Source of the DNA: Promethearchaeota archaeon
Lineage (GTDB): Archaea; Asgardarchaeota; Thorarchaeia; Thorarchaeales; Thorarchaeaceae
Direction of reading: 5' to 3'
DNA length: 64,000 nucleotides
Assembly: GCA_014728035.1 (NCBI GenBank)
Contig: WJMJ01000059.1
Span: forward strand, 64,001-128,000
Under the pieces are notes generated by a model that saw only the letters and a program-made list of their open reading frames with translations, had not been told where the DNA came from and did no database searches. The translations under genes were made by a program, and so were the position numbers. Numbering within the stretch: position 1 is the first letter of the stretch; every line of letters starts with the position of its first letter. Positions 41,079-52,204 of the stretch are shown piece after piece.

Positions 41079-41813
41079 ATGACGAAAGCCAAGAAGATAT
41101 TTGAAACCGCAAAGAAAGAGGGGCGAACGTTCGTCCTTGAACATGAAGCCAAGGACATAATGAAAGAGTATGATATTCCGATTCCACCATATGATACTGC
41201 ATCAACTGCAGATGAAGCTGTAGAAAAGTCTGAGAAAATTGGATTTCCTGTAGTATTGAAGATTTTATCAAAAGATATTCTTCACAAGTCAGACGCTGGT
41301 GGAGTAAAAATAAATCTCAAAAACGAAGAAGATGTAAGAACTGCTTTTGAAGAAATTATGGAAAGCGCTAAGGAATATGGCAAAGAGAAGGGTATCGATG
41401 TGGATCTCAGTAGAGGAGTATTCATTTCCAGTTTCGCTGAGATGGGGACAGAGGTTATTGTTGGTGTTACAAAGGATCCCCAGTTTGGTCATGCTTTGAT
41501 GTTTGGTCTGGGTGGTATATTTGTAGAGGTTCTGAAAGATGTCACTTTTCGATTAATACCTTTGACAAAAGTTGATGCTATGGAAATGGTCGGTGAAATT
41601 AAAGCCGCTAAGATTCTTGAAGGTGTTAGAGGTCAAGACCCAAGAGATATTGATGCACTTGTAGAAATCATTTTGAAAGTTTCAAAGATGGTCGAAGAAA
41701 ATCCACAAATCAATGAGCTTGACTGCAATCCCACTTTTGTATATTCCAAAGGAAAGGGTGCTCTGGTAGTAGATGCTAGAATCTTGATTGGAGATTCTAA
41801 ATCAGATCATTGA
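41079..41813 (+). CDS. acdB: ADP-forming acyl-CoA synthetase beta subunit
   Basis: GFPVVLK, HKSDAGGV, DPQFG, ELDCNP, VDARI. Confidence 0.93.
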   Translation: MTKAKKIFETAKKEGRTFVLEHEAKDIMKEYDIPIPPYDTASTADEAVEKSEKIGFPVVLKILSKDILHKSDAGGVKINLKNEEDVRTAFEEIMESAKEYGKEKGIDVDLSRGVFISSFAEMGTEVIVGVTKDPQFGHALMFGLGGIFVEVLKDVTFRLIPLTKVDAMEMVGEIKAAKILEGVRGQDPRDIDALVEIILKVSKMVEENPQINELDCNPTFVYSKGKGALVVDARILIGDSKSDH

Positions 41814-42999
41814 TTAATCTGTGAAGAAGAATCAAACCCCTTTTCAGGTCTTTGTATCTAAGCCCCTCTTCATCGGGGGGCATAGTCCCACTAGCGACAA
41901 GCAGCAGAAGGGATACCATTCTAGGAACCAGTCTTGAATATTGAAGTAGAAATTCCCTATTTCCCGTTGAATCTACAATCAAGCCTTCCAATCGTCGAGA
42001 TAGTAGTGATAGACGTTCTTCCAGTCCCTCTCTAGGCTTTAGTCTTTTAAATAATGAAACCACATCCGAATCATTCTGAAAAAGTGTAGTAGAAACGCCG
42101 ATGGAATCCAATAACTCTAAAGACTGAAGAATAAACGATCCATAGTGTTCCTCTTCTATTCGTGCATATCCCATATCTACTGATTTTAGCTGACAAAGCA
42201 GTTTCAAGGAGTTTGTGAGAATAGCACGTGTTGCACTTGTAGGAGAAATAGCTTGTTGGGTTAGAAATTCCGCATGTTTATTCTCCAGTCCCGCAGCTCT
42301 CGATGAATCCAGCTGTTTTTCAAATCCTGGGGAGAACGTGATGACAGCTGCTTGATGTAATTTAGAACTCGTTCCGAGCTTTCGAGTAGCTGTCAATGAA
42401 ATGAAGTCATCATATGGTGTGTAAAAAAGAAGAATTCTTAGAACATCATACGCTATTTCGAAGTCCTCTTCAACAGTTGCAGACCGTCCTTTATTCCTAG
42501 CTGCAAATCCGCTTAGTAGGATCCAGATAGAAACAATACTTTCACATAATTGGTAGGTTTCCTTGTTATCTCCAAGGTCATGTTCACTCAAAAAACGAGA
42601 TAGTCGCTCTGATGCATTATCGATTCGGTTTAGAGTGCTAGATCCCATGTCTACTGCAATTAGAGAAGTTATGAATTCTCTAGGGTCATGAGATGGTGGG
42701 CGGATAACAAATCGTGGCCTTTTTCTGGTAAGACTCCACCATTTAGATGTTGAAGCAAAGATATCCAATGTATCAATTGCAATAGTCAAGTCTGCCATTC
42801 TTGTTTTCTTACGGGTGTCTAGAACTGCAGATAGCTTAGCAAAGACTACGAGAAATTTTGTCAAATGTTCTGAGAGTTTCTGCCCTGAATATATGTGATG
42901 GGAGTATCTTTCAAGAACTCGGCTCATTGCTCCCATTGAATCTCTATCAACTTCAGTTCGTAAAAGATTCTTGTAGACCTCTATCGGCTTTCGCGCCAA
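41797..42999 (-). CDS. Hypothetical protein with four internal helical repeats
   Basis: Repeats of ~100 aa each ending in a helix-turn-(T/I)xxD-helix; no P-loop. Confidence 0.6.
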   Translation of the reverse strand: MARKPIEVYKNLLRTEVDRDSMGAMSRVLERYSHHIYSGQKLSEHLTKFLVVFAKLSAVLDTRKKTRMADLTIAIDTLDIFASTSKWWSLTRKRPRFVIRPPSHDPREFITSLIAVDMGSSTLNRIDNASERLSRFLSEHDLGDNKETYQLCESIVSIWILLSGFAARNKGRSATVEEDFEIAYDVLRILLFYTPYDDFISLTATRKLGTSSKLHQAAVITFSPGFEKQLDSSRAAGLENKHAEFLTQQAISPTSATRAILTNSLKLLCQLKSVDMGYARIEEEHYGSFILQSLELLDSIGVSTTLFQNDSDVVSLFKRLKPREGLEERLSLLSRRLEGLIVDSTGNREFLLQYSRLVPRMVSLLLLVASGTMPPDEEGLRYKDLKRGLILLHRLINDLI

Positions 43000-43099: not shown

Positions 43100-43867
43100 C
43101 TATTTGCCATAGCGTCTTTGTCTCTGCTCGTAAGAACGCAGAGCTCGCCAAATGTCAATTCGGCGAACTGCGGGCCAATAAATCTGTGCAAAATAAAGTT
43201 CTGAATACGCCGATTGCCAAAGAAGAAAACCGGATAGTCTTTCTTCGCCCGATGTTCTGATAATTAGATCTGGATCTGGAGTGCCTTCAGTGTATAGATG
43301 CTGCTCTATCATAGCCTCATCAATATCGGAAGGGGTTATATTGCCCTCCTGAATCTTCTCACTGATTGCTTTAACTGCATCAACGAGTTCAGCTCGTCCC
43401 GAATAGCCAATTGCTACATTGAGGATATGTTTATCATAATGAGCTGTTTCCTGTTCAGCTATAGTAATAGCTTGTTGTACATCCTCGGGGAGCAAATCAA
43501 CACGTCCAATAGCTTTGATTCGAACTTGATGACGATGTACATCTGGATTACCTACCACCTCGCCGAATTTTTCCTTAGCAATTTCCATTATTTCACTAAC
43601 TTCATCTTCATTTCTTTGAAAATTTTCCATAGAAAAAGTATAGAGTGTACATACTGAAACACCTGCTTCCCAAAGGATTTTGAGCACTTGCATAACCTTC
43701 TGAGCACCAAGACGATGGCCAAACCAAGGAGCATCTGCACCGTGTTCTCTTGCATATCGACGATTTCCATCTAGAATAATCCCAACATGTCTAGGTGCAT
43801 TTTCTTTTCGTAATTGACGAAAAAGCCAATATTCGTAGAGACGATAAACTGGACCTGCTATATTCAA
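43100..43867 (-). CDS. uppS: cis-prenyltransferase (polyprenyl diphosphate synthase)
   Basis: ILDGNRR, FSMENF.R, PDLIIRTSGEERLSGF, RRYG. Confidence 0.95.
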   Translation of the reverse strand: MNIAGPVYRLYEYWLFRQLRKENAPRHVGIILDGNRRYAREHGADAPWFGHRLGAQKVMQVLKILWEAGVSVCTLYTFSMENFQRNEDEVSEIMEIAKEKFGEVVGNPDVHRHQVRIKAIGRVDLLPEDVQQAITIAEQETAHYDKHILNVAIGYSGRAELVDAVKAISEKIQEGNITPSDIDEAMIEQHLYTEGTPDPDLIIRTSGEERLSGFLLWQSAYSELYFAQIYWPAVRRIDIWRALRSYEQRQRRYGK

Positions 43868-43938: not shown

Positions 43939-44310
43939 TCAAATCATTGTTGCAATCTTTTCTGCCGCTCGTTTCATCTCAAGAAAAATGATTCCCAGTT
44001 TAGCATTTGCTGTTGTAGAAACAGTTAGACAAGCATTCATTCCCGCTTGAACAACAAGGAGCCAACCATCTATTCCTTTGATGTTTACCTGCTCAAGATC
44101 TCCTTTTCCAAGTTCGATTGATGCTTTCTCTCCAAGGGTTAACATAGCAGCTGTCATGGCTGCAACCTTTGCCTCATCTACATCGGTGGGCAAAGCAGAT
44201 ACGATAGGAAGTCCCTCAACGCTAACAATAGCACACGCTTCAATCTCAGGAATACTTCCCTGTAATTCGTTTAGTACGCTTTCAAGTGTATCTCCACGGG
44301 ATTCTGACAT
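43939..44310 (-). CDS. Roadblock/LC7 domain protein
   Basis: IVSVEGLPIVS, VAAMTAAM..LG, LG.I. Confidence 0.92.
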   Translation of the reverse strand: MSESRGDTLESVLNELQGSIPEIEACAIVSVEGLPIVSALPTDVDEAKVAAMTAAMLTLGEKASIELGKGDLEQVNIKGIDGWLLVVQAGMNACLTVSTTANAKLGIIFLEMKRAAEKIATMI

Positions 44311-44467
44311 TTGGCCTCACCTTAGTATCATCTAGGAAGTCAATATTCCATAGGTCACATTTCGTTCACTGTGAAAGAACATATAAGCTCTTCTGGGGTC
44401 ACTCCGTGAATTGCGCAATGTGATATATTCCATGGTACATATTTCTAAATCGAATGAATAAATTTGT

Positions 44468-45043
44468 CTATTTGTACATTCGTTTTAGAATTACTTCACG
44501 AGCAATCGCTTGGAAAGCTCTTTTAACGCCTACACCTTGGATTGCAATCGTTTCATAGATTGGAACATTGCCACCTAAGCCTAAGAGATCAAGCATCTCA
44601 TCACGGGACATCCGATTGGGAAGGTCTCGCTTGTTCAACATGACTACAATAGGAATCTCACGACCAAGTGCATCGCCCAAAAAAAGTTTGAGCTCTTCAA
44701 AGCTCTCCACATTTTCGTCGCGTTGGTCCGGAGATGAGTCAGCTACAAAAAGTAGACCATCAGTTCCCTGAAGTACAACCTTTCTTTGATGTCTATGTCT
44801 TTTCTGTCCTGCAACTGTGAAGACATCAAATAGTACTCTTCCACCAGCACTCATAGGCACATAGTCAAAGAATAGAGTCCTATTGGTTTCATCTTCAATA
44901 GCAGTGAACTCTCCCTTTTGTAACCCTTCGACTTTTCCATAAAGCCAACGAAGAGCTGTTGTTTTGCCTCCTAGGCTAGGGCCGTAGAATACTAATTTCA
45001 GATGGATTCTGCCACGATCGTCCTTTCTCATTGGTGGGTTCAC
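44468..45043 (-). CDS. MglA-type small GTPase
   Basis: KLVFYGPSLGGKTT, RTLFFD (intrinsic Arg finger), TVAGQ, FVADS, NKRDL. Confidence 0.9.
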   Translation of the reverse strand: MNPPMRKDDRGRIHLKLVFYGPSLGGKTTALRWLYGKVEGLQKGEFTAIEDETNRTLFFDYVPMSAGGRVLFDVFTVAGQKRHRHQRKVVLQGTDGLLFVADSSPDQRDENVESFEELKLFLGDALGREIPIVVMLNKRDLPNRMSRDEMLDLLGLGGNVPIYETIAIQGVGVKRAFQAIAREVILKRMYK

Positions 45044-45300
45044 CTCATGTTACAGATACAGATTACACGAGTTTTGTACCGACAAGTCGGTACATTTCGG
45101 TTGAGAGGGATTATTGCTCAGCACAGATATGTACTGAATCCCGTCTTTAGTCCCGCATTAGGCGGTTAATTGTTTTAGAAATGTTGTCTCATAAAAGCCT
45201 ATTGAGTTTAGTCTCAACAAATGATTCCAGAAAAAGGAATATATTCAGAATGTGCATAGTACACTCTAAGCTGAAAGAGGAACACACCCTGAATTTTCCT

Positions 45301-45768
45301 TTAGACTCGTTCTAATTCAGCTAATGCTGACTTCAAATCTTCTTCGTCTAGCTCCCGATCTTTAGCAGGAGTAGATGGTTCAACTGCAAGGAATTTGTCA
45401 AGCTCTTCAGCAAGTTGGACACCTTGTTTCTTCATAAGAAGACGAATAAGTCCAATATTGACTTCGGCTTCGGAAACAACACATAGAACACCTTTACCAC
45501 AGGCTGAGGCAAAGATTTTCCCTTCTGAGAATTCAGACGTCACAATTTCTAACTCGCCAATCTGGAGGTTCTTACCTTGTTCCTCGCTGGCACAGAACAC
45601 TGCACTAGCAATAGCGCCTATACTATCCACATCAACAGGATAGTAACTCAGCTTACTTACATTTGCAATAGTTAAACCAGTCTTGTCAACAAGAATGACT
45701 TTTCGAATTCCTTTTTCTTGGCGAATAATGTCAGTGAGAATCTTATCGAATACTTTCGGTTCGCTCAT
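45301..45768 (-). CDS. Roadblock/LC7 (MglB-like) protein with acidic C-terminal helix
   Basis: LVDKTGLTIA, GAIASAVF, NIGLIRL. Confidence 0.88.
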   Translation of the reverse strand: MSEPKVFDKILTDIIRQEKGIRKVILVDKTGLTIANVSKLSYYPVDVDSIGAIASAVFCASEEQGKNLQIGELEIVTSEFSEGKIFASACGKGVLCVVSEAEVNIGLIRLLMKKQGVQLAEELDKFLAVEPSTPAKDRELDEEDLKSALAELERV

Positions 45769-45790
45769 TGGATAACCCCTCTTTCAGCCT

Positions 45791-46081
45791 TTATTTCAGG
45801 ACTACTAATATGAGCCCTTCACTAGGTTCAGGTGCGATATTAATCTGACCCTGGGAGGTATCCAGTGTCAGAAATGATAAACTTCCCTCCCGTAATTCAC
45901 GAACAGCATCTAATGCTTTTCCTACGAGAGAGGTGATGATTGCAGCGACAGTTTCAGTGGTTTCAGGATCCAAATCGCTACTTAATGGAAGTCCTTCCAT
46001 GGTAGTGACTACTACGCCACGAACGCCATCTTGACCCTTAATCTTCTTGATTATCGCTTGTAATTTCTCTTGACTTATCAC
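45791..46081 (-). CDS. Roadblock/LC7 domain protein
   Basis: GVVVTTMEGLPL.S, AAIITSL. Confidence 0.9.
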   Translation of the reverse strand: MISQEKLQAIIKKIKGQDGVRGVVVTTMEGLPLSSDLDPETTETVAAIITSLVGKALDAVRELREGSLSFLTLDTSQGQINIAPEPSEGLILVVLK

Positions 46082-46245
46082 TTAGAGAATCTCCAAATCA
46101 GTTAATCGTGCAATCAGCAATCTATACCCTGCGATTGACTATTTTAGACTTGTGGAGGTGTGTTCCTGAAAATACATCTCTTTTGCGCAATTCGCTCCAT
46201 TTTGAAAGAAAAATGACTGCGCCTCGAATGGCACAGTCCAATACT

Positions 46246-47871
46246 TCATTCCTCCTCATCTTCCTCAAACATCTCTCTTGAACTTCTACGCATTTGGGCA
46301 AGACTTTCTGTGAATGCCTCATCAGAAACTTCAGAGGGAGCTGAAGCTGAAGCAGCTTTGAGCTTCTTTTCTTGATGCTCAATTTCTGCTTCCTCTTTTT
46401 CAAGAGCACGTTCAATTTTGTCAAAAGCTTTCTTGATTTTCTTTGGTGCTTTCATTTCTCGCTTCTTTAGTGCTGATCTGAAAGATGCAATACGTTCTCT
46501 GCCAGATGCTCTATCTCCTCTAAATGACTCTTCTCCTGCTTTTTGAGTGACAAAAGTAGCACCAACAGTTGGATCAAGTGTATCAATGATTTCTTCTTCT
46601 TTATCTGCTACCTTTAATCTAGTAGTTACTGACCGTAATCTTCTCGCACCAGTTTCATCTGTATAGGCTACTTGGACTTGAATAGGAATTTCCTCCTGTT
46701 CGATCTCATCTTCTGGCTCTACCTCGACATATAGTTCATGTTCGTTACCTACAACAGCAATCTTGCTTTCACTTTTCTTCTTCAAATCTTCAATAACAGC
46801 ATGAGATATCCCAGATGCGTCTTTCAATTTTACTCCCGCAGGCGTAATCAGTCGTACTTCAACATCTCGTCCAAGAAGAGAAGCTCCTGCAAGGCGCGAA
46901 AGACTGCGGTCCAGTTCATTTGGTGTGACATAATACATCTGTCCATTTGTTGCTTCAGGCATGAGACCAAGTGTTTTGAGTTCCATTCCTGCACCAGATG
47001 CAATACCAACAACATCAATTGCAGTTCCAAGCTCACTAAACATTGAACCAATTGATTCGTAAAACTTAGATGCTGGGGTTACTTGATATCCTTCAAGAGC
47101 GCCAATTCCTTCGTTCGCAAGACCATCAGTAAGAATTACAACACGACCGACATTACGATGTTTTGCAATAACATATGCCATTGCAACTGCTGGGCCAAGG
47201 GCTGTTCCGCCCATATCTCGTAAAGCTTGAACATGTTGTTTCACTTTTTCGGAATTCTTTCCAATATGGACAAGATTGAATTTGTCAAGCAAACTTTTGG
47301 TGCTCTCTACAATACTATCTAGACTTGCATAAGTTTCACGGGGTAATACTATTGGCTCTCCAGTTTGAAGATTACGAAAAACAACCGAACTTTCGAATTC
47401 GATAAGACCGAACATCGTATCTGGTGAGTTTGCTGCAAGACTCTCAATAGATGTACTAAGACTTCTCTTTACAGCTGATAGATTCACTCCGGACATAGAA
47501 CCAGATACATCGATTAATGCAATGAATGATTTACCCCCGACCGGGACAGCATCAGTCACTGTATCAGTTTGCTCTGGGGCTGGAGAAATCACAAAGTCTG
47601 ACTCATTTCCAGCAAAGACTACTTCTCCCTCTATGACATTCAAAGTACTACAGAAAGGACATATGAAATGCTTACCAATCTTGGGATTTTCTTTGATTTG
47701 ATCTACACTAATTAGAAACCCATTACATTTGTGACAAGCAATAGGTTTACCGACAATCTTAGTCACATCACGTGCAAGATCCCTGAACTCCACGCGAAGA
47801 ACATAAGGTATGTCTTTCAAAACTTTCTTTGAGGCGGGAAACGCCTCAGAACTGGTTCTCAACATAGGCAT
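46246..47871 (-). CDS. Sec23/Sec24-like protein (Zn finger + vWA trunk + beta-sandwich + helical)
   Basis: CHKC...FICPFCSTLN Zn finger; IDVSGSM MIDAS, GGTALGPA, LTDGLANEG.G; RRLRS.T. ATG 47871 likely. Confidence 0.82.
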   Translation of the reverse strand: MPMLRTSSEAFPASKKVLKDIPYVLRVEFRDLARDVTKIVGKPIACHKCNGFLISVDQIKENPKIGKHFICPFCSTLNVIEGEVVFAGNESDFVISPAPEQTDTVTDAVPVGGKSFIALIDVSGSMSGVNLSAVKRSLSTSIESLAANSPDTMFGLIEFESSVVFRNLQTGEPIVLPRETYASLDSIVESTKSLLDKFNLVHIGKNSEKVKQHVQALRDMGGTALGPAVAMAYVIAKHRNVGRVVILTDGLANEGIGALEGYQVTPASKFYESIGSMFSELGTAIDVVGIASGAGMELKTLGLMPEATNGQMYYVTPNELDRSLSRLAGASLLGRDVEVRLITPAGVKLKDASGISHAVIEDLKKKSESKIAVVGNEHELYVEVEPEDEIEQEEIPIQVQVAYTDETGARRLRSVTTRLKVADKEEEIIDTLDPTVGATFVTQKAGEESFRGDRASGRERIASFRSALKKREMKAPKKIKKAFDKIERALEKEEAEIEHQEKKLKAASASAPSEVSDEAFTESLAQMRRSSREMFEEDEEE

Positions 47872-48050
47872 TTGAGATTCGACTCCAAAACAATTGAGTG
47901 TGATTACTCCGAAATCTATTAAATTCATCGACGCGCTACTTGTTAATAGCAGGTAGAAGCAAAAATTAGACTATCGCCACATAAAATATAAACGCAGTTA
48001 ATAACATGCACATTATGTAAATACATGACCTCCGCGGAGTAAGAATAGAC

Positions 48051-48419
48051 ATGGTAGTTAGCAAAACGAAAATAGAAGAAATTGTTGCTGAAACTATGGC
48101 CAATAATCCAGAAATTGAAGGTATGATTGTTTGTAATGCAGAAGGAGAAGTCCTTTTTGGCCATACTCTAAGTGCAACTATTATGCATAAAGAGGTAGCA
48201 GAATTTGTTGTGAAGATTTCAACTAACTCATCCCAGCTTGTTAACGGACTGGACCAAGGAGGTCTCAAGGAGATTGACATCTCGGCCGAAACTGGTTTTG
48301 TGATGATATTTGGAGATGTTAAACTAATATTGGCAGCTTTTGCAGGTGAAACCGCTCGGGAATCTTTGGGTTTGGTTCGAATGACATTGCGGCGTGCGTT
48401 GATGAGTATGATAGGCTAA
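48051..48419 (+). CDS. Roadblock/LC7-like protein, divergent
   Basis: IEGMIVCNAEG, SLGLVRMTL. Confidence 0.7.
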   Translation: MVVSKTKIEEIVAETMANNPEIEGMIVCNAEGEVLFGHTLSATIMHKEVAEFVVKISTNSSQLVNGLDQGGLKEIDISAETGFVMIFGDVKLILAAFAGETARESLGLVRMTLRRALMSMIG

Positions 48420-48613: not shown

Positions 48614-51600
48614 TTGGTCCATATTGAAAAAATAGTTGTTAAAGGATTCAAATCATTTGGCCGAGACTCCGTTACCATCAAAATAAATCCCGGATTCACT
48701 TGTGTAGTAGGTCCAAATGGCTCAGGAAAGTCTAATGTGATTGACGCTATCCTTTTTGTGCTTGGTCAACTAAGTGCAAAAACACTTCGTGCTAATGTTT
48801 TTTCAGATCTATTATATTCCCCGCCAAAAGCAGGGATGCCACCTAAAGCTAAATCCGCTTCGGTATCTATTCATTTCAATAATAAAGACAGAAAACTACA
48901 AGTCGATGCAGACAAGGTTGTTGTAGAACGCGAGCTAGATGAAACCGGAAAATCAACATGCAGAGTAAATGGGAAAGTCGTAACACGTTCAGCTGTATTA
49001 GATTTACTTGGTAGTATTGGTGTGGATCCTAACGGATACAATCTTGTTTTACAAGGCGAAATAGCTCAGATGGTCAAAGTTAGTCCGAACGATCGTAGAA
49101 AACTAATCGAAGAGATTGCGGGAATATCCGCTTATGATGAACAGAAGAACAAGGCACTAAAAAAACTGGCTGAAAGTGAACAAAATCTTGGTAAGGTTGA
49201 AACACAGCTCCAAGAAAGACGTAGGCAGCTTGAAAGACTGGAAGAAGAAAGGTCTGATGCTCTTCGATACACCGAATTGAAAGAAAAAATTCGGGACGTT
49301 CGAGTGAATAGATTAGCTTGGACTATACTAAAATCAGATATTCGTATAGACACTATCAAGGAAACCCTCACTGAACGTGCAGCAGATGCTGAAAAACTCG
49401 AAAGAGAGTTTCATGAAACCGAAGAAAAAATCGCTGAAACCGAAGTAAAAATTGAAGAAATAGACTCGCTGATTGACCAAATCACTGGTGGGGACTCGGC
49501 AAGAATCTCAGAGCGATTTGGGGTGGTTTCAGCAGCTGTTAACCATGTTAAAAGTGACCTTTCAAGAGCAGAAAACGAACTTGATAAATCTAAACGTGAA
49601 CAGGATGATATTAAGGCAAGATTAGATTCAATTCAAGATCAAATAGAATACTCGGAAGGTAAGGTTAAGGAAAAAGATAGAGTTCTTGCTGCTTTGGATG
49701 AAGAGATTGCAAAATGTAAGAACGATATTGCAGCTATGGAAGAAACCTTAGCTAGAGAGCAGTCTGACTATTATGAAACACAACAACGACTCCAAGACCT
49801 CAACAACCAGATGATTGCACTCGATGAGGGCGTTTCAGAAATACGTTCAGCCATCAAATCTGACAATCGTGAACTTGGGTTAGCCTATGAAGAGCTTACT
49901 GACAGCCAAGAAAGTCTCCGACGGACTGAGGAAGAGCTGACCCAGTTACATACCACATTCCCCTCAAGAAAGTCTGCTTATGAAAAAATGCTTGAAGAAG
50001 AAAAAAGACTACAAACAGAACTAAACGAAGTCATAGAGCGAGAGAAGACAACGGATTCAGAAGTAGCAGAGTCTGCAAGATTAGTCAATTCTACCCGTGA
50101 AGAACTAATACGTCTTCAAGCTCGACAGGATGCACTCAAAGAAGCGGAAGATGCATTTCTAAAGAAACAAAGAGCTCTTGCAAGAGTATTAGAAATGCGG
50201 GACACAGGAGAGATTGAAGGCATATACGGGACAATAGCTGAGTTAGGAACCATTGACCCTGATTATAGCACAGCTCTAGAAGTTGCAGGAGGCGGAAGAC
50301 TCACACATATTGTGGTGGAAGATGACTTCGTAGCATCTGAATGCGTACGGGCACTAAAAAGAGAACGTATAGGTAGAGCATCGTTTATCCCACTTAACAA
50401 AATCAGAAGTAGACCCCCTGGAGAACTTCCAGATAAAGAGGGAGTAATTGGATTCGCTTTAGATTTGGTAGATTTCGACCCAAAATTGCAACCAGCGTTT
50501 GAATATGCATTCACAGATACTGTTGTGACAGAAGATTTCGAAACCGCCAAAATCCTCGGTTTTAGTAGATGGCGAGCAGTTTCATTGGAGGGCGATCTTG
50601 TAGAGAAATCTGGTCTCATCACTGGTGGACACTATCAAAAGAGAGGCGCAGGAATCTCATTTCAAGTAGAAGATAGAAGCTACGAAATAGAAGAAAAACT
50701 TAGAGGTCTCGAGAAGATTCTATCGGAAATTCGTGATAAACAAGAGAGCTTACATCAGAAAAGAAGGATATTGCAAAAGGAGATTGAAACGATATCAAAG
50801 AAAAGTTATCGTGAAGGTGTAGAAATAGAACGTCTACAACAATCAATTGATGAAAAAGAAGCAAAGCAAGCAAACCTTCGTGAGAAAATCTCTATTCTAG
50901 AACTCAGGATTAAGGAGCTTGAAAACCAAATTAATGAGCTTTCTATAAGAGATAAAGAGCTATCCGAGCAGAGGGAGCGAGTTCGTGAACGTCGGGACCA
51001 ATGCAATGAGCTGCTTGCGAAATCTGATGCGGCAAAGATAAATCAAGATATTAAAGATTTGAAAGAAATCCTTGAACATCACCGAAGACAACGAGAAGAT
51101 CTCCAAAGTGATATAACCTCTTTGAGAGTGAGTCTTGAAGAAAGATTAGGGCCAAAATCTGTTGAATTGGAGCATCGCATACAATCGCTTAACGCAGTAA
51201 TTCCCAACCTAGAAGAAGAGGTCCGTGTGCTAGCAGAGAGTCTTGAGGATAAAGAAAAAGAACTTGAGGAACTGAAGACAGAGAGAGCAAAGATTGATGA
51301 CGCTGTTAAAGATAAGCGTGTTGATCAGATTCGAATGAAAGAAGACCTTCGCAATCTCAGGTTTAGACTGGAGGAGATTCGTGATGAGATGACTTCAAAC
51401 GAAAAGGCGGTTTACAGACTTCAAACTGAGCAATCTCGGTTGGAGTCAGATATTGTTGCGCTGCATGCAGAATTAAAATTGATAGCTGATATCGATCACG
51501 AGATAGCAATAAGAAAAGACCTTCCAGAACTTACCTATAGAGAAATTGAGGAACTTGAGGAGAAAATTAGAGAATTAGAGAGAGAGCTTGATGAGATGGG

Positions 51601-52204
51601 CCCCGTAAATCTCAAATCTCTTACAGATTACGATATAGAACGTCAGAAATATGATGAAATAGTCGAGAAAAAGGTCCAGCTTGAAGAAGAACATAAAGAA
51701 ATCATTGCGTTCATGGAAGAGTTAGAACGGGAAAAAACCCAGAAGTTCTTACATGTTTATAATGAGATAGCTGACAATTTCTCAAAGGTGTTTGCAAAAC
51801 TTTCTCCGGGTGGAGAAGCTAACCTGATGCTTGAGAATCCTGAACATCCGCTCATGGGTGGGATTACAGTACGTTCCAAACCTCGCGGGAAGGATGTTGT
51901 GACATTGGATGCAATGAGTGGCGGTGAAAAGACTATCACTGGACTGGCATTAATATTTGCAATCCAGATGTTCAGCCCAGCTTCATTCTATGTGTTTGAT
52001 GAGATAGATGCAGCTCTGGATAGTGTTAACGCACACAATGTAGCTCTACTAATCTCGGAGATGTCAAAATCATCACAATTCATTGTCGTGTCGTTGCGTG
52101 AACCAACTGTTCGTAAAGCAGATCTTTTGATTGGTGTTTCAAATCAAGATGGTATCTCACGTATTGTTTCAGTTGATTTAGAGGAGGTTGCATCCACAGC
52201 ATGA
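48614..52204 (+). CDS. smc: Chromosome segregation protein SMC
   Basis: GFKSF, GPNGSGKSN, long coiled coils, hinge G.YG.I.ELG, MSGGEK, FDEIDAALD. Confidence 0.98.
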   Translation: MVHIEKIVVKGFKSFGRDSVTIKINPGFTCVVGPNGSGKSNVIDAILFVLGQLSAKTLRANVFSDLLYSPPKAGMPPKAKSASVSIHFNNKDRKLQVDADKVVVERELDETGKSTCRVNGKVVTRSAVLDLLGSIGVDPNGYNLVLQGEIAQMVKVSPNDRRKLIEEIAGISAYDEQKNKALKKLAESEQNLGKVETQLQERRRQLERLEEERSDALRYTELKEKIRDVRVNRLAWTILKSDIRIDTIKETLTERAADAEKLEREFHETEEKIAETEVKIEEIDSLIDQITGGDSARISERFGVVSAAVNHVKSDLSRAENELDKSKREQDDIKARLDSIQDQIEYSEGKVKEKDRVLAALDEEIAKCKNDIAAMEETLAREQSDYYETQQRLQDLNNQMIALDEGVSEIRSAIKSDNRELGLAYEELTDSQESLRRTEEELTQLHTTFPSRKSAYEKMLEEEKRLQTELNEVIEREKTTDSEVAESARLVNSTREELIRLQARQDALKEAEDAFLKKQRALARVLEMRDTGEIEGIYGTIAELGTIDPDYSTALEVAGGGRLTHIVVEDDFVASECVRALKRERIGRASFIPLNKIRSRPPGELPDKEGVIGFALDLVDFDPKLQPAFEYAFTDTVVTEDFETAKILGFSRWRAVSLEGDLVEKSGLITGGHYQKRGAGISFQVEDRSYEIEEKLRGLEKILSEIRDKQESLHQKRRILQKEIETISKKSYREGVEIERLQQSIDEKEAKQANLREKISILELRIKELENQINELSIRDKELSEQRERVRERRDQCNELLAKSDAAKINQDIKDLKEILEHHRRQREDLQSDITSLRVSLEERLGPKSVELEHRIQSLNAVIPNLEEEVRVLAESLEDKEKELEELKTERAKIDDAVKDKRVDQIRMKEDLRNLRFRLEEIRDEMTSNEKAVYRLQTEQSRLESDIVALHAELKLIADIDHEIAIRKDLPELTYREIEELEEKIRELERELDEMGPVNLKSLTDYDIERQKYDEIVEKKVQLEEEHKEIIAFMEELEREKTQKFLHVYNEIADNFSKVFAKLSPGGEANLMLENPEHPLMGGITVRSKPRGKDVVTLDAMSGGEKTITGLALIFAIQMFSPASFYVFDEIDAALDSVNAHNVALLISEMSKSSQFIVVSLREPTVRKADLLIGVSNQDGISRIVSVDLEEVASTA

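What the first reader, a model, noticed from the sequence alone, without database searches (positions are those of the whole stretch)
43939..48419. MglA-type GTPase flanked by four roadblock proteins and a Sec23/24-like protein
Seen: on the minus strand, Sec23/24-like, roadblock, roadblock, MglA, roadblock, with a fourth divergent roadblock. Established: MglB roadblock dimers regulate MglA, Ragulator is a hetero-oligomer of roadblocks, and Sec23 is the effector/GAP of Sar1 in COPII. Inference: a hetero-roadblock regulator, GTPase and proto-coat module, possibly an ancestral membrane-remodelling or polarity switch. The individual parts are known in Asgards; their physical linkage is the notable point.
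Basis: partly seen in the sequence, partly recalled or inferred. Interest (0 to 1): 0.75.

Follow-up and report, generated by a model that had tools for sequence, protein, structure and literature searches.

The report
Asgard MglA switch with four roadblocks
A Thorarchaeota genome carries an ancient Asgard gene cluster for a small GTPase switch and four different roadblock partner proteins, and the coat-protein-like (Sec23/24-like) gene beside it is a later, Thor-only insertion and not a conserved partner.

Summary
Observation confirmed. All six genes lie at the stated coordinates: three clear roadblock (RB) proteins, one divergent RB, a Group-1-type MglA GTPase and a zinc-finger/vWA/beta-sandwich Sec23/24-like protein (Sec23L).

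Interpretation partly supported. The conserved unit is RBD | RBC-RBB-MglA-RBA, usually beside SMC and a cis-prenyltransferase. The four RBs are separate ancient paralogues (tree support 96-100).
- Of 26 loci outside the Thor family, 6 have the full cluster, 3 have it without RBD in view, and 2 have the four RBs without MglA.
- 3 are partial and 12 are dispersed (the Loki- and Heimdall-labelled families).
- Sec23L is in 0 of these 26 loci.

Sec23L lies between RBD and RBC only in the Thor family. MglA is 1.1-4.9 kb downstream in 59 of 78 such genomes. One Thor genome has Sec23L unlinked and another has deleted it down to its last 30 codons. In 31 non-Thor Sec23L loci, 0 contain the MglA/RB orthologues. 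Several families have the cluster and no Sec23L at all.

A looser Sec23L-GTPase link therefore stays open.

The scan had noted this stretch before only as first-reader notes on this same DNA.

The parts
43939..44310 (-). RBA: roadblock protein (123 aa) just downstream of MglA; no C-terminal extension
   Evidence: Robl_LC7 5e-16. Orthologue profile hits solved Asgard-type RB 7f8m at 1e-31 and 9jue at 2.5e-28. Forms its own clade, support 96/91. Found next to MglA or RBB in 14 of 26 non-Thor loci.
44468..45043 (-). MglA-type small GTPase (191 aa)
   Evidence: Solved MglA structures at 5e-38 against Arf at 2.5e-12. P-loop GxxxxGKT, switch-I Arg55, Thr76-x-x-Gly79-Gln80 and NKxD are conserved in 17 Asgard homologues. 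Present in 346 of 400 sampled phylum genomes at E<=1e-30, at 91-99% identity within the Thor family.
45044..45300 (-). RBB-MglA spacer (257 bp): T5 run 66 nt after the RBB stop and an 18-bp perfect palindrome at 45076-45093
   Evidence: In other Thor genomes this spacer ranges from 111 bp to 3.9 kb and holds unrelated inserted ORFs. In non-Thor clusters the spacer computed from the coordinates is about 22-100 bp.
45301..45768 (-). RBB: MglB-like roadblock (155 aa) with a conserved C-terminal extension, upstream of MglA
   Evidence: Robl_LC7 4.9e-10; MAPKK1_Int (LAMTOR3) 31 bits against cut-off 25; NCBIfam MglB 3.8e-5, far below its cut-off. Profile hits M. xanthus MglB at 2.7e-6 and LAMTOR2 at about 1e-3. 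69% mean column identity across classes, with an invariant C-terminal L..A...LE. Present in 333 of 400 genomes.
45791..46081 (-). RBC: short roadblock (96 aa, no C-terminal helix) of the dynein-light-chain LC7 type
   Evidence: Robl_LC7 4e-15. Profile hits 7f8f at 2e-39 and eukaryotic dynein light chain roadblock at 2.4e-24. The single sequence hits 7f8f at 3.9e-26 and human DYNLRB1 at about 1e-11.
46246..47928 (-). Sec23/24-like protein: zinc ribbon, vWA with full MIDAS, beta-sandwich, charged helical tail; no gelsolin domain. Probable true start at 47871.
   Evidence: Pfam results. Profile hits Sec24 at 1.6e-19 and ArnB (8S05) at 4.2e-10. C65, C68, C90, C93, D140, S142, S144, T242 and D268 are invariant in 15 homologues. 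Single copy in this genome. Present in 148 of 400 phylum genomes.
47929..48050 (.). Divergent spacer between Sec23L and RBD (122 bp)
   Evidence: In clusters without Sec23L, RBD and RBC face away from each other across about 140-375 bp (coordinates). Sec23L therefore sits in what is elsewhere the RBD/RBC divergent spacer.
48051..48419 (+). RBD: divergent roadblock (122 aa), co-directional with and upstream of SMC
   Evidence: Pfam is weak (0.036). Orthologue profile hits 9jq8 at 1.4e-23 and 7f8m at 2e-12. Own clade, support 99/93. RBD directly precedes SMC in the Thor, f2, f14 and f16 loci.
48614..52204 (+). SMC (1196 aa): conserved neighbour, not shown to be part of the module
   Evidence: phmmer E = 0 to 1e-157 in the loci.
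43100..43867 (-). cis-prenyltransferase-like gene ('UPPS', my label from reading the translation, no family scan) downstream of RBA: conserved neighbour
   Evidence: Follows RBA in the Thor loci and in L141, L142, L143, L145, L149 and L173. It lies 2 kb away in L139.

Best explanation
The window holds the Thorarchaeal version of an ancient Asgard locus for a small-GTPase switch.

The GTPase and its likely regulators:
- MglA is of the bacterial Group-1 type, with its own arginine finger and catalytic glutamine.
- It sits between RBB, an MglB-like roadblock with a conserved C-terminal extension, and RBA, a plain roadblock.
- By analogy with bacterial MglB, which binds one MglA as an asymmetric dimer, RBB and RBA most likely form the dimeric platform that sets MglA's GTP hydrolysis and nucleotide exchange. 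This is inferred.
- RBC (short, dynein-LC7-type) and RBD form a second roadblock pair. It would scaffold or modulate the first, as MglC does for MglB, or as LAMTOR4/5 does for LAMTOR2/3. This is also inferred.

What is shown:
- The four roadblocks are separate ancient paralogues.
- They stay together across Asgard families, in two families even with MglA encoded elsewhere.

The Sec23/24-like gene:
- It was inserted into the RBD/RBC divergent spacer in the ancestor of one family (Thorarchaeota records, GTDB family code f1) and has mostly stayed there.
- It is not an obligate part of the module. It is unlinked everywhere else, absent from several lineages that keep the cluster, and deleted in one Thor genome.
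- It is a zinc-ribbon/vWA(MIDAS)/beta-sandwich/helical protein of the Sec23/24-ArnB kind without the GAP-bearing gelsolin domain. It is more likely a metal-dependent binding scaffold than a Sar1-type GAP.

T-runs after Sec23L, RBB and RBD suggest separate transcripts: [Sec23L], [RBC-RBB], [MglA-RBA] and [RBD]. This too is inferred.
For: - Gene identities.
- MglA motifs.
- Four RB orthogroups, each one side of a branch with support 96-100.
- Cluster without Sec23L in 26 non-f1 loci: full in 6 (L139, L141, L142, L143, L149, L150); without RBD in view in 3 (L145, L146, L157); four RBs without MglA in 2 (L172, L173).
- Thor linkage: coordinates put MglA 1.1-4.9 kb downstream of Sec23L, on the same contig and strand, in 59 of 78 f1 genomes with a Sec23L match.
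- Gene order SMC<-RBD | Sec23L-RBC-RBB-MglA-RBA-UPPS-orf400 is seen in the Thor loci.
- Exceptions inside Thor: G315 has the cluster without Sec23L, which lies on another contig (L144 and L040). G392 is 96% complete and keeps only the last 30 codons of Sec23L between RBD and RBC.
- Sister family f2 (G311): cluster on contig C57, Sec23L on C61.
- Phyletic mismatch: Sec23L scored 0/3 in f4, 0/4 in f6, 0/5 in f15, 0/3 in f28 and 0/4 in f29, yet sampled genomes of all five carry the cluster.
- T-runs.
- Literature (passages read): PMC13408092 reports an AlphaFold3 model of a dimer of MglB homologues on the GTPase of a Thorarchaeota pair. PMC11914678 reports that Asgard Sec23-like proteins lack gelsolin and bound an Asgard Arf weakly and independently of nucleotide state.
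Against: - Sec23L is co-directional with RBC-RBB and retained over family-level divergence (Sec23L identity falls to 51-53% in genus g2 while the order holds). That is also what recruitment into a module looks like.
- By my rough estimate, a randomly moved gene would land within 1.3 kb of any RB or GTPase gene only about 4% of the time in this genome.
- Other RB or Ras-like genes lie within 1.3 kb of Sec23L in 8 of 31 non-Thor loci. These are L047 and L048 (roadblock) and L051, L052, L095, L100, L102, L105 (Ras-family GTPase, two genes away). These loci are partly kin and the cut-off was chosen after looking.
- Eukaryotes have fusions of a Ras-like domain with a zinc finger and a Sec23-trunk-type vWA domain (PMC2430557, passages). 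The protein-atlas feature search lists such proteins among the near neighbours at 0.95, which is a lead only.
- No heterodimer, GAP or GEF activity, or transcript structure was tested.
- PMC13408092 says Ct-helix binding was not predicted for its Thorarchaeota pair. This weakens the MglB-style role I give the RBB tail.
Confidence: 0.68

Rival explanations
1. One reading: Sec23L was recruited as an effector or cargo-like partner of the MglA/roadblock switch. The six genes then form one functional module, a GTPase-controlled membrane or scaffold assembly.
For: - Same strand and directly upstream of RBC-RBB.
- Linked in 59 of 78 f1 genomes plus this one.
- Insertion exactly in this cluster has a low chance expectation, about 4% for any RB or GTPase neighbour.
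- Other RB or Ras-like genes lie near Sec23L in 8 of 31 non-Thor loci.
- Eukaryotic cpRAS-ZnF-vWA fusions exist.
- Sec23 is a GTPase effector in COPII (established knowledge; passages of PMC11914678).
Against: - The linkage is absent in every non-Thor lineage sampled: 0 of 31 and 0 of 26 loci.
- The G392 deletion and the unlinked G315 copy leave the rest intact.
- The whole orf400-to-SMC block is syntenic in Thor, so retention needs no selection.
- T5 run and 164-bp gap after Sec23L.
- No gelsolin domain.
Confidence: 0.3
2. The cluster is a spatial regulator tied to chromosome or cell-division organisation. RBD is co-directional with SMC, and the MglA/RB switch would mark poles or mid-cell. 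The models are MglA/MglB in Myxococcus and the unrelated ArcoA GTPase oscillator in Haloferax.
For: - RBD lies directly upstream of SMC in Thor, f2, f14 and f16. SMC-like hits lie within 3-4 kb in f28 and f29.
- MglA controls polarity in bacteria (abstracts listed).
- An archaeal Ras-superfamily GTPase oscillator positions division (bioRxiv 10.64898/2026.07.23.738820, passages).
Against: - The evidence is adjacency only.
- T6 run and 194-bp gap between RBD and SMC.
- SMC is not seen beside RBD in L149 and L150.
- The cluster is dispersed in the Loki- and Heimdall-labelled families, which keep SMC.
Confidence: 0.15
3. The four roadblocks do not act together. Each forms a homodimer serving a different GTPase or process, and the clustering is a frozen remnant of tandem duplication.
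For: - Solved Asgard RB and RBLC7 proteins crystallised as homodimers (PMC10933270, passages).
- The genes are dispersed singly in 12 of 26 non-Thor loci without obvious loss.
- PMC10933270 states that MK-D1 GTPase genes are generally not in operons with RB genes.
Against: - The paralogues are old (long stem branches), yet order and orientation are kept in at least 9 family-level lineages.
- They stay together even where MglA has left (L172, L173).
- RBB and MglA are unusually conserved (69% mean column identity; 91-99% within Thor).
Confidence: 0.2

Closest known systems
Bacterial MglA/MglB polarity switch (Myxococcus xanthus, Thermus thermophilus; PDB 6izw, 3t1q)
   Same: - The GTPase aligns end to end with M. 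xanthus MglA at 5e-38, with no gap between G1 and G2.
- It has the T-x-x-G-Q G3 motif and the switch-I arginine.
- An MglB-like roadblock with a C-terminal extension is encoded just upstream, as in mglBA.
   Different: - Four distinct roadblock paralogues, not one MglB. Wuichet and Sogaard-Andersen note at most two coupled MglB genes in the passages read.
- One of them is a short dynein-LC7-type RB.
- No RomR/RomX/Frz context was looked for.
- The host is an archaeon.
Eukaryotic Sec23/Sec24 (COPII inner coat)
   Same: Zinc finger, vWA trunk and beta-sandwich in the same order. The profile aligns to Sec24 residues 96-550 at 1.6e-19. Sec23_trunk is above the Pfam cut-off.
   Different: - No gelsolin domain, hence no GAP arginine.
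- The MIDAS motif is complete here. In the Sec24 alignment the LTDG aspartate is not matched.
- About 540 aa against about 770-930 aa.
- The neighbouring GTPase is MglA, not Sar1/Arf.
ArnB of Sulfolobus acidocaldarius (PDB 8S05) with ArnA zinc finger
   Same: vWA plus beta-sandwich plus C-terminal helical domain. The profile hit is 4.2e-10 over positions 209-523. PMC12852372 (passages) itself notes that Sec23/24 share this arrangement and include a zinc finger like ArnA's.
   Different: - Here the zinc ribbon is fused to the vWA protein.
- The sequence is closer to Sec24 than to ArnB.
- No FHA partner or kinase was looked for.
- ArnAB regulate the archaellum.
Ragulator (LAMTOR2/3 + LAMTOR4/5) with Rag GTPases
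   Same: Several different roadblock proteins, long and short forms, around a small GTPase. RBB passes the Pfam LAMTOR3 model (31 against 25 bits) and hits LAMTOR2 at about 1e-3.
   Different: - The GTPase is MglA, not a Rag with its own roadblock domain.
- RBC and RBD score below the LAMTOR5 cut-off.
- No LAMTOR1-like anchor was sought.
- Heterodimers are untested.
Dynein light chain Roadblock/LC7 (DYNLRB1/2) and the solved short Asgard roadblock 7f8f
   Same: RBC is 96 aa without the C-terminal helix. Its profile hits 7f8f at 2e-39 and DYNLRB at 2.4e-24.
   Different: No dynein is expected in archaea (my knowledge, not searched here). RBC sits in a GTPase/roadblock cluster. That 7f8f is the Odin-RBLC7 of PMC10933270 is my guess, since that paper's data statement lists other codes.
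Eukaryotic cpRAS-ZnF-vWA proteins (Elias and Novotny 2008, PMC2430557)
   Same: A Ras-like GTPase combined with a four-cysteine zinc finger and a Sec23-trunk-type vWA domain (passages). They are near neighbours of Sec23L in the atlas feature search at 0.95.
   Different: It is a fusion in one chain, with a circularly permuted Ras domain. Homology to the Asgard protein was not tested by alignment here.

Membership tests
MglA family, Group 1 / MglA1 type | Best similarity to characterised MglA over other Ras-superfamily groups | tested here: met
   MglA structures at 5e-38 against the best Arf at 2.5e-12.
MglA family, Group 1 / MglA1 type | G3 motif without the usual Asp (T-x-x-G-Q), plus an intrinsic switch-I arginine and a catalytic Gln | tested here: met
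   T76, G79, Q80 and R55 are conserved in 17 Asgard homologues; one row (L150) has F in place of R55. They align with the corresponding M. xanthus residues. The motif definition comes from passages of PMC4316618 and from my own knowledge.
MglA family, Group 1 / MglA1 type | Insertion between G1 and G2 said to be typical of bacterial MglA | tested here: met
   Ungapped alignment to M. xanthus MglA across G1-G2. The criterion comes from PMC4316618.
MglA family, Group 1 / MglA1 type | Coupled to an MglB-family gene within four genes | tested here: met
   RBB lies 257 bp upstream and RBA 157 bp downstream.
Roadblock/LC7 (MglB) superfamily | Match to Robl_LC7 above the curated cut-off | tested here: met
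   RBA 58.7, RBB 39.5 and RBC 55.8 bits against cut-off 23. RBD scores 14.2, which is not met by Pfam, but its orthologue profile hits a solved roadblock protein at 1.4e-23.
MglB proper (GAP/GEF of MglA) | Dimer binding one MglA; a C-terminal helix that contacts MglA; GAP activity | not testable with these tools
   RBB has a conserved C-terminal extension, and MglB is its best solved hit at 2.7e-6. PMC13408092 says Ct-helix binding was not predicted for its Thorarchaeota pair.
Sec23/Sec24 | Zinc finger, trunk (vWA) and beta-sandwich in order | tested here: met
   Trunk is above the cut-off. Beta-sandwich (30.4 against 33.5) and zinc finger (16.6 against 25) are below it. All three are covered by the profile alignment to Sec24 at 1.6e-19, and the four Cys are invariant.
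Sec23/Sec24 | Helical domain followed by a gelsolin-like domain (which carries the Sec23 GAP arginine) | tested here: not met
   No Sec23_helical or Gelsolin hit at E<=0.1. The protein ends about 90 residues after the aligned region. PMC11914678 reports the same for all Asgard Sec23-like proteins.
Sec23/Sec24 | Works with a Sar1/Arf-type GTPase and Sec13/31 | not tested
   The neighbouring GTPase is MglA. No search for Sar1, Sec13 or Sec31 was made.
ArnB-type vWA regulators | vWA plus beta-sandwich plus C-terminal helical domain; partner ArnA (zinc finger plus FHA); phosphorylation switch | tested here: inconclusive
   Profile hit to 8S05 at 4.2e-10 over the last three-fifths of the protein. 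Partners and phosphorylation were not examined.
Ragulator (LAMTOR) | Two roadblock heterodimers on a LAMTOR1 anchor that bind Rag GTPase heterodimers | tested here: not met
   The GTPase is MglA, not Rag. Only RBB passes a LAMTOR model. Heterodimers and an anchor are untested. It may work like Ragulator but is not a member.
Dynein light chain Roadblock/LC7 | About 96-aa roadblock without the C-terminal helix, close in sequence to DYNLRB | tested here: met
   RBC profile at 2.4e-24 to DYNLRB. Binding to a dynein intermediate chain does not apply in archaea.

The most novel reading that the evidence does not exclude
The four-roadblock plus MglA locus is an ancestral Asgard hetero-oligomeric roadblock platform. 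It would consist of two different dimers, one long (RBB/RBA) and one containing the LC7-type short form (RBC/RBD), and would control a GTPase. That would make it the prokaryotic forerunner of eukaryotic multi-roadblock scaffolds such as Ragulator, and the source of the dynein Roadblock light chain. In Thorarchaeota this platform would additionally have captured a Sec23/24-like zinc-finger/vWA protein as an effector, giving a GTPase-regulator-proto-coat trio encoded side by side.
Probability: 0.15. Interest if true: 0.85.

Novelty: new variant of a known kind. Interest (0 to 1): 0.55.

Why it matters
Roadblock and longin platforms with small GTPases organise eukaryotic membranes and signalling. 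It is not known which of them existed as assembled systems in the archaeal ancestor.

- Published work that I could read treats Asgard roadblocks, MglA-like GTPases and Sec23-like proteins one at a time. It states that Asgard GTPase genes are mostly not in operons with their regulators (PMC10933270; bioRxiv 10.1101/2020.10.19.343400).
- A five-gene locus kept across many Asgard families names a concrete set of proteins to co-express. The question would be whether they form a Ragulator-like hetero-complex on MglA.
- One member is the closest archaeal relative of the dynein Roadblock light chain.
- The result also corrects an attractive over-reading. The Sec23/24-like gene is a Thor-specific lodger in this locus, so the locus should not be cited as a conserved GTPase-coat pairing.
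- The recurrent proximity of Sec23L to other GTPase and roadblock genes still deserves a direct binding test.

Tried and rejected
No fold search or interface modelling was therefore possible.
- RNA evidence: the look-up of sequencing runs listed no run and no RNA holder. This says nothing about expression.
- The sigma-70 promoter and terminator scanner was not used, because the host is an archaeon. I only looked for T-runs and TATA-like words by eye and regex. No convincing TATA box at the expected distance was found for any gene.
- My MglA-trained GTPase HMM missed the Ras-family GTPases near Loki Sec23L genes. They surfaced only through neighbour clustering and Pfam. My first impression of 'no GTPase near Sec23L outside Thor' was therefore wrong and is corrected above.
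- My ORF caller missed RBB in L166. tblastn found it as a lone gene.
- A Ragulator identity for the RBs was considered and rejected as membership. Only RBB passes a LAMTOR model, and the GTPase is not Rag.
- A search for a conserved partner of Sec23L across Asgards found none. Neighbours are lineage-specific housekeeping genes: rRNA dimethylase, NurA, DUF655, Rce1-like protease, Fe-ADH, acyl-CoA dehydrogenase and PhoU-like.
- Distribution outside Asgard archaea was not tested. That scan returned only weak vWA-only bacterial matches at 23-32% identity.
- Family names: handles are anonymous. G094 = a Hermodarchaeota record was matched by the position of the hit in a short contig. Labels such as 'Loki-type' or 'Heimdall-labelled' for f22, f21 and f13 are inferences.
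- Not in print, as far as my searches go. Searches returned no paper describing the five-gene cluster or the Thor-specific position of Sec23L.
- Zaremba-Niedzwiedzka et al. 2017 is not held. The supplements of the Liu et al. preprint, PMC11914678 and PMC13408092 (its Supplementary Fig. 11) may show these gene contexts.
- Rows dropped before counts: six loci duplicate loci (L082, L086, L090, L096, L101, L108) and were removed. L062, L093 and L107 had no full Sec23L ORF. Bacterial loci L110-L138 were not analysed.
- The 59 of 78 count was made by hand from the coordinate tables.
- Of the other 19 genomes, 14 have the two genes on different contigs. The two of these that I fetched, G329 and G359, keep Sec23L-RBC-RBB together up to a contig end or an insert.
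- One of the 19, G315, is unlinked.
- Four of the 19 have only weak or partial Sec23L matches: G327, G332, G389 and G391. G332 is contig-cut but linked, and G389 is rearranged without Sec23L, RBD or SMC nearby.

Full report
WHAT IS THERE. The window is contig C25, 64001-128000, of a 4.33-Mb, 173-contig genome. Its closest named relatives are Thorarchaeota MAGs. Between 43939 and 48419 the ORF list gives, on the minus strand and in order of transcription:
- a 560-aa protein, 46246-47928;
- a 96-aa protein (RBC), 45791-46081;
- a 155-aa protein (RBB), 45301-45768;
- a 191-aa GTPase, 44468-45043;
- a 123-aa protein (RBA), 43939-44310.

A 122-aa protein (RBD, 48051-48419) is read divergently on the plus strand. 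SMC follows it at 48614-52204. A cis-prenyltransferase-like gene (43100-43867; my label from the translation, no family scan) and a 400-aa ORF with no Pfam hit follow RBA.

IDENTITIES, roadblocks and GTPase. Pfam puts RBA, RBB and RBC in Robl_LC7 above the cut-off, and RBD below it. Profiles of orthologues searched against solved structures sharpen this.
- RBA matches the solved roadblock proteins 7f8m (1e-31) and 9jue.
- RBB matches M. xanthus MglB best (2.7e-6), then LAMTOR2 at about 1e-3. It also passes the Pfam LAMTOR3 model.
- RBC matches 7f8f (2e-39) and eukaryotic dynein light chain Roadblock at 2.4e-24.
- RBD matches 9jq8 at 1.4e-23.
- The GTPase matches solved MglA at 5e-38 against 2.5e-12 for Arf. 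It aligns without gaps through the G1-G2 region.
- Its switch-I arginine, T-x-x-G-Q and NKxD motifs are conserved among 17 Asgard homologues. These are the marks of the Group-1 MglA type in the passages of PMC4316618 that I read.

IDENTITIES, the 560-aa protein. It is Sec23/24-like.
- The trunk is above the cut-off; beta-sandwich and zinc finger are just below.
- A 15-sequence profile aligns to yeast Sec24 residues 96-550 at 1.6e-19.
- The four zinc-ribbon cysteines and a complete MIDAS set (D140, S142, S144, T242, D268) are invariant.
- There is no gelsolin domain. This agrees with what PMC11914678 reports for all Asgard Sec23-like proteins (passages).
- The same profile also hits ArnB of Sulfolobus (8S05) at 4.2e-10. 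The paper on that structure notes that Sec23/24 share the ArnB domain arrangement and ArnA's zinc finger (PMC12852372, passages).

IS THE LINKAGE CONSERVED? Sec23L side. I searched 400 genomes of the phylum with Sec23L. 148 had a match, including 78 of 85 in the window's family f1. I then read the flanks.
- In the Thor-family loci the order is SMC<-RBD | Sec23L-RBC-RBB-(spacer)-MglA-RBA-UPPS-orf400.
- Comparing the coordinates, MglA lies 1.1-4.9 kb downstream on the same contig and strand in 59 of 78 f1 genomes. Most of the remainder are broken by contig ends (details under Tried and rejected).
- Outside f1 I examined 31 distinct Sec23L loci, from records labelled Hermod-, Frey-/Jord-, Heimdall-, Promethearchaeia and others. 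None contains an orthologue of MglA or of the four RBs.

IS THE LINKAGE CONSERVED? MglA and RBB side. I searched the phylum with MglA (346 of 400) and RBB (333 of 400), and fetched 26 non-f1 loci centred on them.
- Six carry RBD | RBC-RBB-MglA-RBA.
- Three carry RBC-RBB-MglA-RBA with RBD not seen in the stretch.
- Two (families f28 and f29) carry RBD | RBC-RBB-RBA with MglA elsewhere.
- Three are partial.
- Twelve hold a lone MglA or RBB (families f13, f18, f19, f21, f22, which include the Loki-type and some Heimdall-labelled records).
- None of the 26 holds Sec23L.
- SMC sits beside RBD in f2, f14 and f16 as well as in Thor. The prenyltransferase follows RBA in six of the non-Thor loci.

EXCEPTIONS AND PHYLETIC PATTERN.
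- The sister family f2 (G311) and one Thor genome (G315) have the cluster without Sec23L, which lies on another contig.
- Thor genome G392 (96% complete, no Sec23L match) keeps only the last 30 codons of Sec23L between RBD and RBC. This amounts to a natural knockout that left the other five genes intact.
- Families f4, f6, f15, f28 and f29 show no Sec23L at all (0/3, 0/4, 0/5, 0/3, 0/4), yet sampled members carry the cluster.
- A maximum-likelihood tree of 44 RB sequences puts each of RBA, RBB, RBC and RBD on one side of a branch with support 96-100. The four are therefore old paralogues, not recent duplicates.

READING. The conserved object is a four-roadblock plus MglA locus that predates the split of many Asgard families. 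Sec23L was inserted into the RBD/RBC divergent spacer in the Thor family. That spacer is about 140-375 bp in clusters without Sec23L.

Mechanistically I take RBB as the MglB counterpart. It lies upstream of MglA, MglB is its best solved hit, and it has a conserved C-terminal tail with invariant L..A...LE. RBA would be its partner in an asymmetric dimer. This is the natural two-gene version of the asymmetric MglB homodimer described for Myxococcus (title and abstract of PMC11016934, listing). RBC and RBD would form a second dimer. All of this is inference. One published note reports an AlphaFold3 model of a dimer of MglB homologues on a Thorarchaeota GTPase, without predicted Ct-helix binding (PMC13408092, passages).

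T-runs 20-66 nt after the stops of Sec23L, RBB and RBD suggest several transcripts. So does a Thor RBB-MglA spacer that varies from 111 bp to 3.9 kb with unrelated inserts.

- The insertion is co-directional and long retained.
- From 14 Robl_LC7 and 38 Ras-type matches in 4.33 Mb, only about 4% of this genome lies within 1.3 kb of such a gene.
- The same rough figure is 4-8.5% for five other Asgard genomes.
- Yet 8 of the 31 non-Thor Sec23L loci have a different roadblock gene or a Ras-family GTPase within 1.3 kb.
  - The roadblock genes are L047, 210 bp upstream on the same strand, and L048, a 500-aa RB-domain protein.
  - The Ras-family GTPase appears in six related Loki-type loci, two genes upstream beyond a small redoxin gene.
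- With Thor, that makes about four lineages out of ten. The loci are partly kin, the distance was chosen after looking, and one case rests on a single genome. I count it as a hint, not a test.
- Eukaryotic cpRAS proteins fuse a Ras-like domain to a zinc finger and a Sec23-trunk-type vWA domain (PMC2430557, passages). They appear among the atlas feature neighbours of Sec23L (0.95).
- I therefore keep a 0.3 chance that Sec23L works with the MglA module in Thor. The chance that this protein family works with small GTPases in general is somewhat higher.

COMPARISON WITH WHAT IS KNOWN. The following are in print:
- MglA/MglB coupling (PMC4316618);
- Asgard MglA groups (bioRxiv 10.1101/2024.02.28.582541, passages);
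- Asgard RB and short RBLC7 structures (PMC10933270, passages);
- Asgard Sec23-like proteins (PMC11914678).

I found no description of the five-gene locus or of the Thor-only position of Sec23L in seven full-text searches. The Liu et al. preprint says most Asgard eukaryote-like genes lack conserved neighbourhoods and names other operons (passages). Supplements and the 2017 Nature paper could not be read. I therefore class this as a new variant of a known kind: an MglA/MglB-type switch with four roadblock paralogues. It is not a new kind.

VERDICT. Observation confirmed; interpretation partly supported. The interesting part moves from 'GTPase plus proto-coat' to 'ancient four-roadblock GTPase platform, with a lineage-specific Sec23/24-like tenant'. 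Interest 0.55. It is a clear, testable lead for people who study Asgard cell biology. It rests on synteny and profiles only, with no interaction, structure or expression data.

Noticed in passing
L100:7238-7873 and L095:7321-7854 (Loki-type loci, between a Ras-family GTPase gene and Sec23L): A thioredoxin-fold redoxin gene is interrupted by one in-frame TGA exactly where the first Cys of a W-C-x-x-C motif would be. Read through, it gives W-[TGA]-T/S-H-C in both genomes. It is a candidate selenocysteine redoxin or a shared pseudogene.
   Followed up: partly
L160:5350-6040 (Thor genome G392): Natural deletion of Sec23L. Only its last 30 codons remain between RBD and RBC, and all other cluster genes are intact.
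   Followed up: yes
window 45076-45093: An 18-bp perfect palindrome lies 33 bp upstream of the MglA start, in the 257-bp RBB-MglA spacer. It could be an operator or a hairpin. Its conservation was not checked.
   Followed up: no
RBB-MglA spacer in Thor loci, e.g. L056:3503-7427, L061:10608-12173, L080:10595-11607: This junction is an insertion hot spot, ranging from 111 bp to 3.9 kb. Contents differ between genomes: a 600-aa ORF on the opposite strand in G320, a 392-aa ORF in L061, and a fragment with a GTPase P-loop in L080.
   Followed up: partly
own genome, contig C44 about 107600-117700 (L155 covers 109500-122000): This may be a second MglA-type locus. An MglA paralogue (51% identity, 282 aa with an N-terminal extension of about 95 aa) has a roadblock gene 1.3 kb away on the opposite strand. 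The genome's best Robl_LC7 match lies about 7.5 kb upstream. A third paralogue on C9 sits about 1 kb from a 315-aa RB-domain protein.
   Followed up: partly
window 41797-42999 (-): The 400-aa ORF downstream of the prenyltransferase has no Pfam family at E<=0.01. It is nevertheless conserved in position in the Thor loci.
   Followed up: partly
window 43100-43867 (-) and non-Thor loci L141, L142, L143, L145, L149, L173: A cis-prenyltransferase-like gene follows RBA across distant Asgard families. SMC follows RBD in several of them. Whether these neighbours are functionally tied to the switch is unknown.
   Followed up: partly
L100:5945-6580 (Loki-type loci): An Rce1-like CAAX prenyl endopeptidase gene lies directly upstream of the Ras-family GTPase near Sec23L. 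This hints at processing of a prenylated GTPase tail. The GTPase C-terminus was not inspected for a CAAX box.
   Followed up: no
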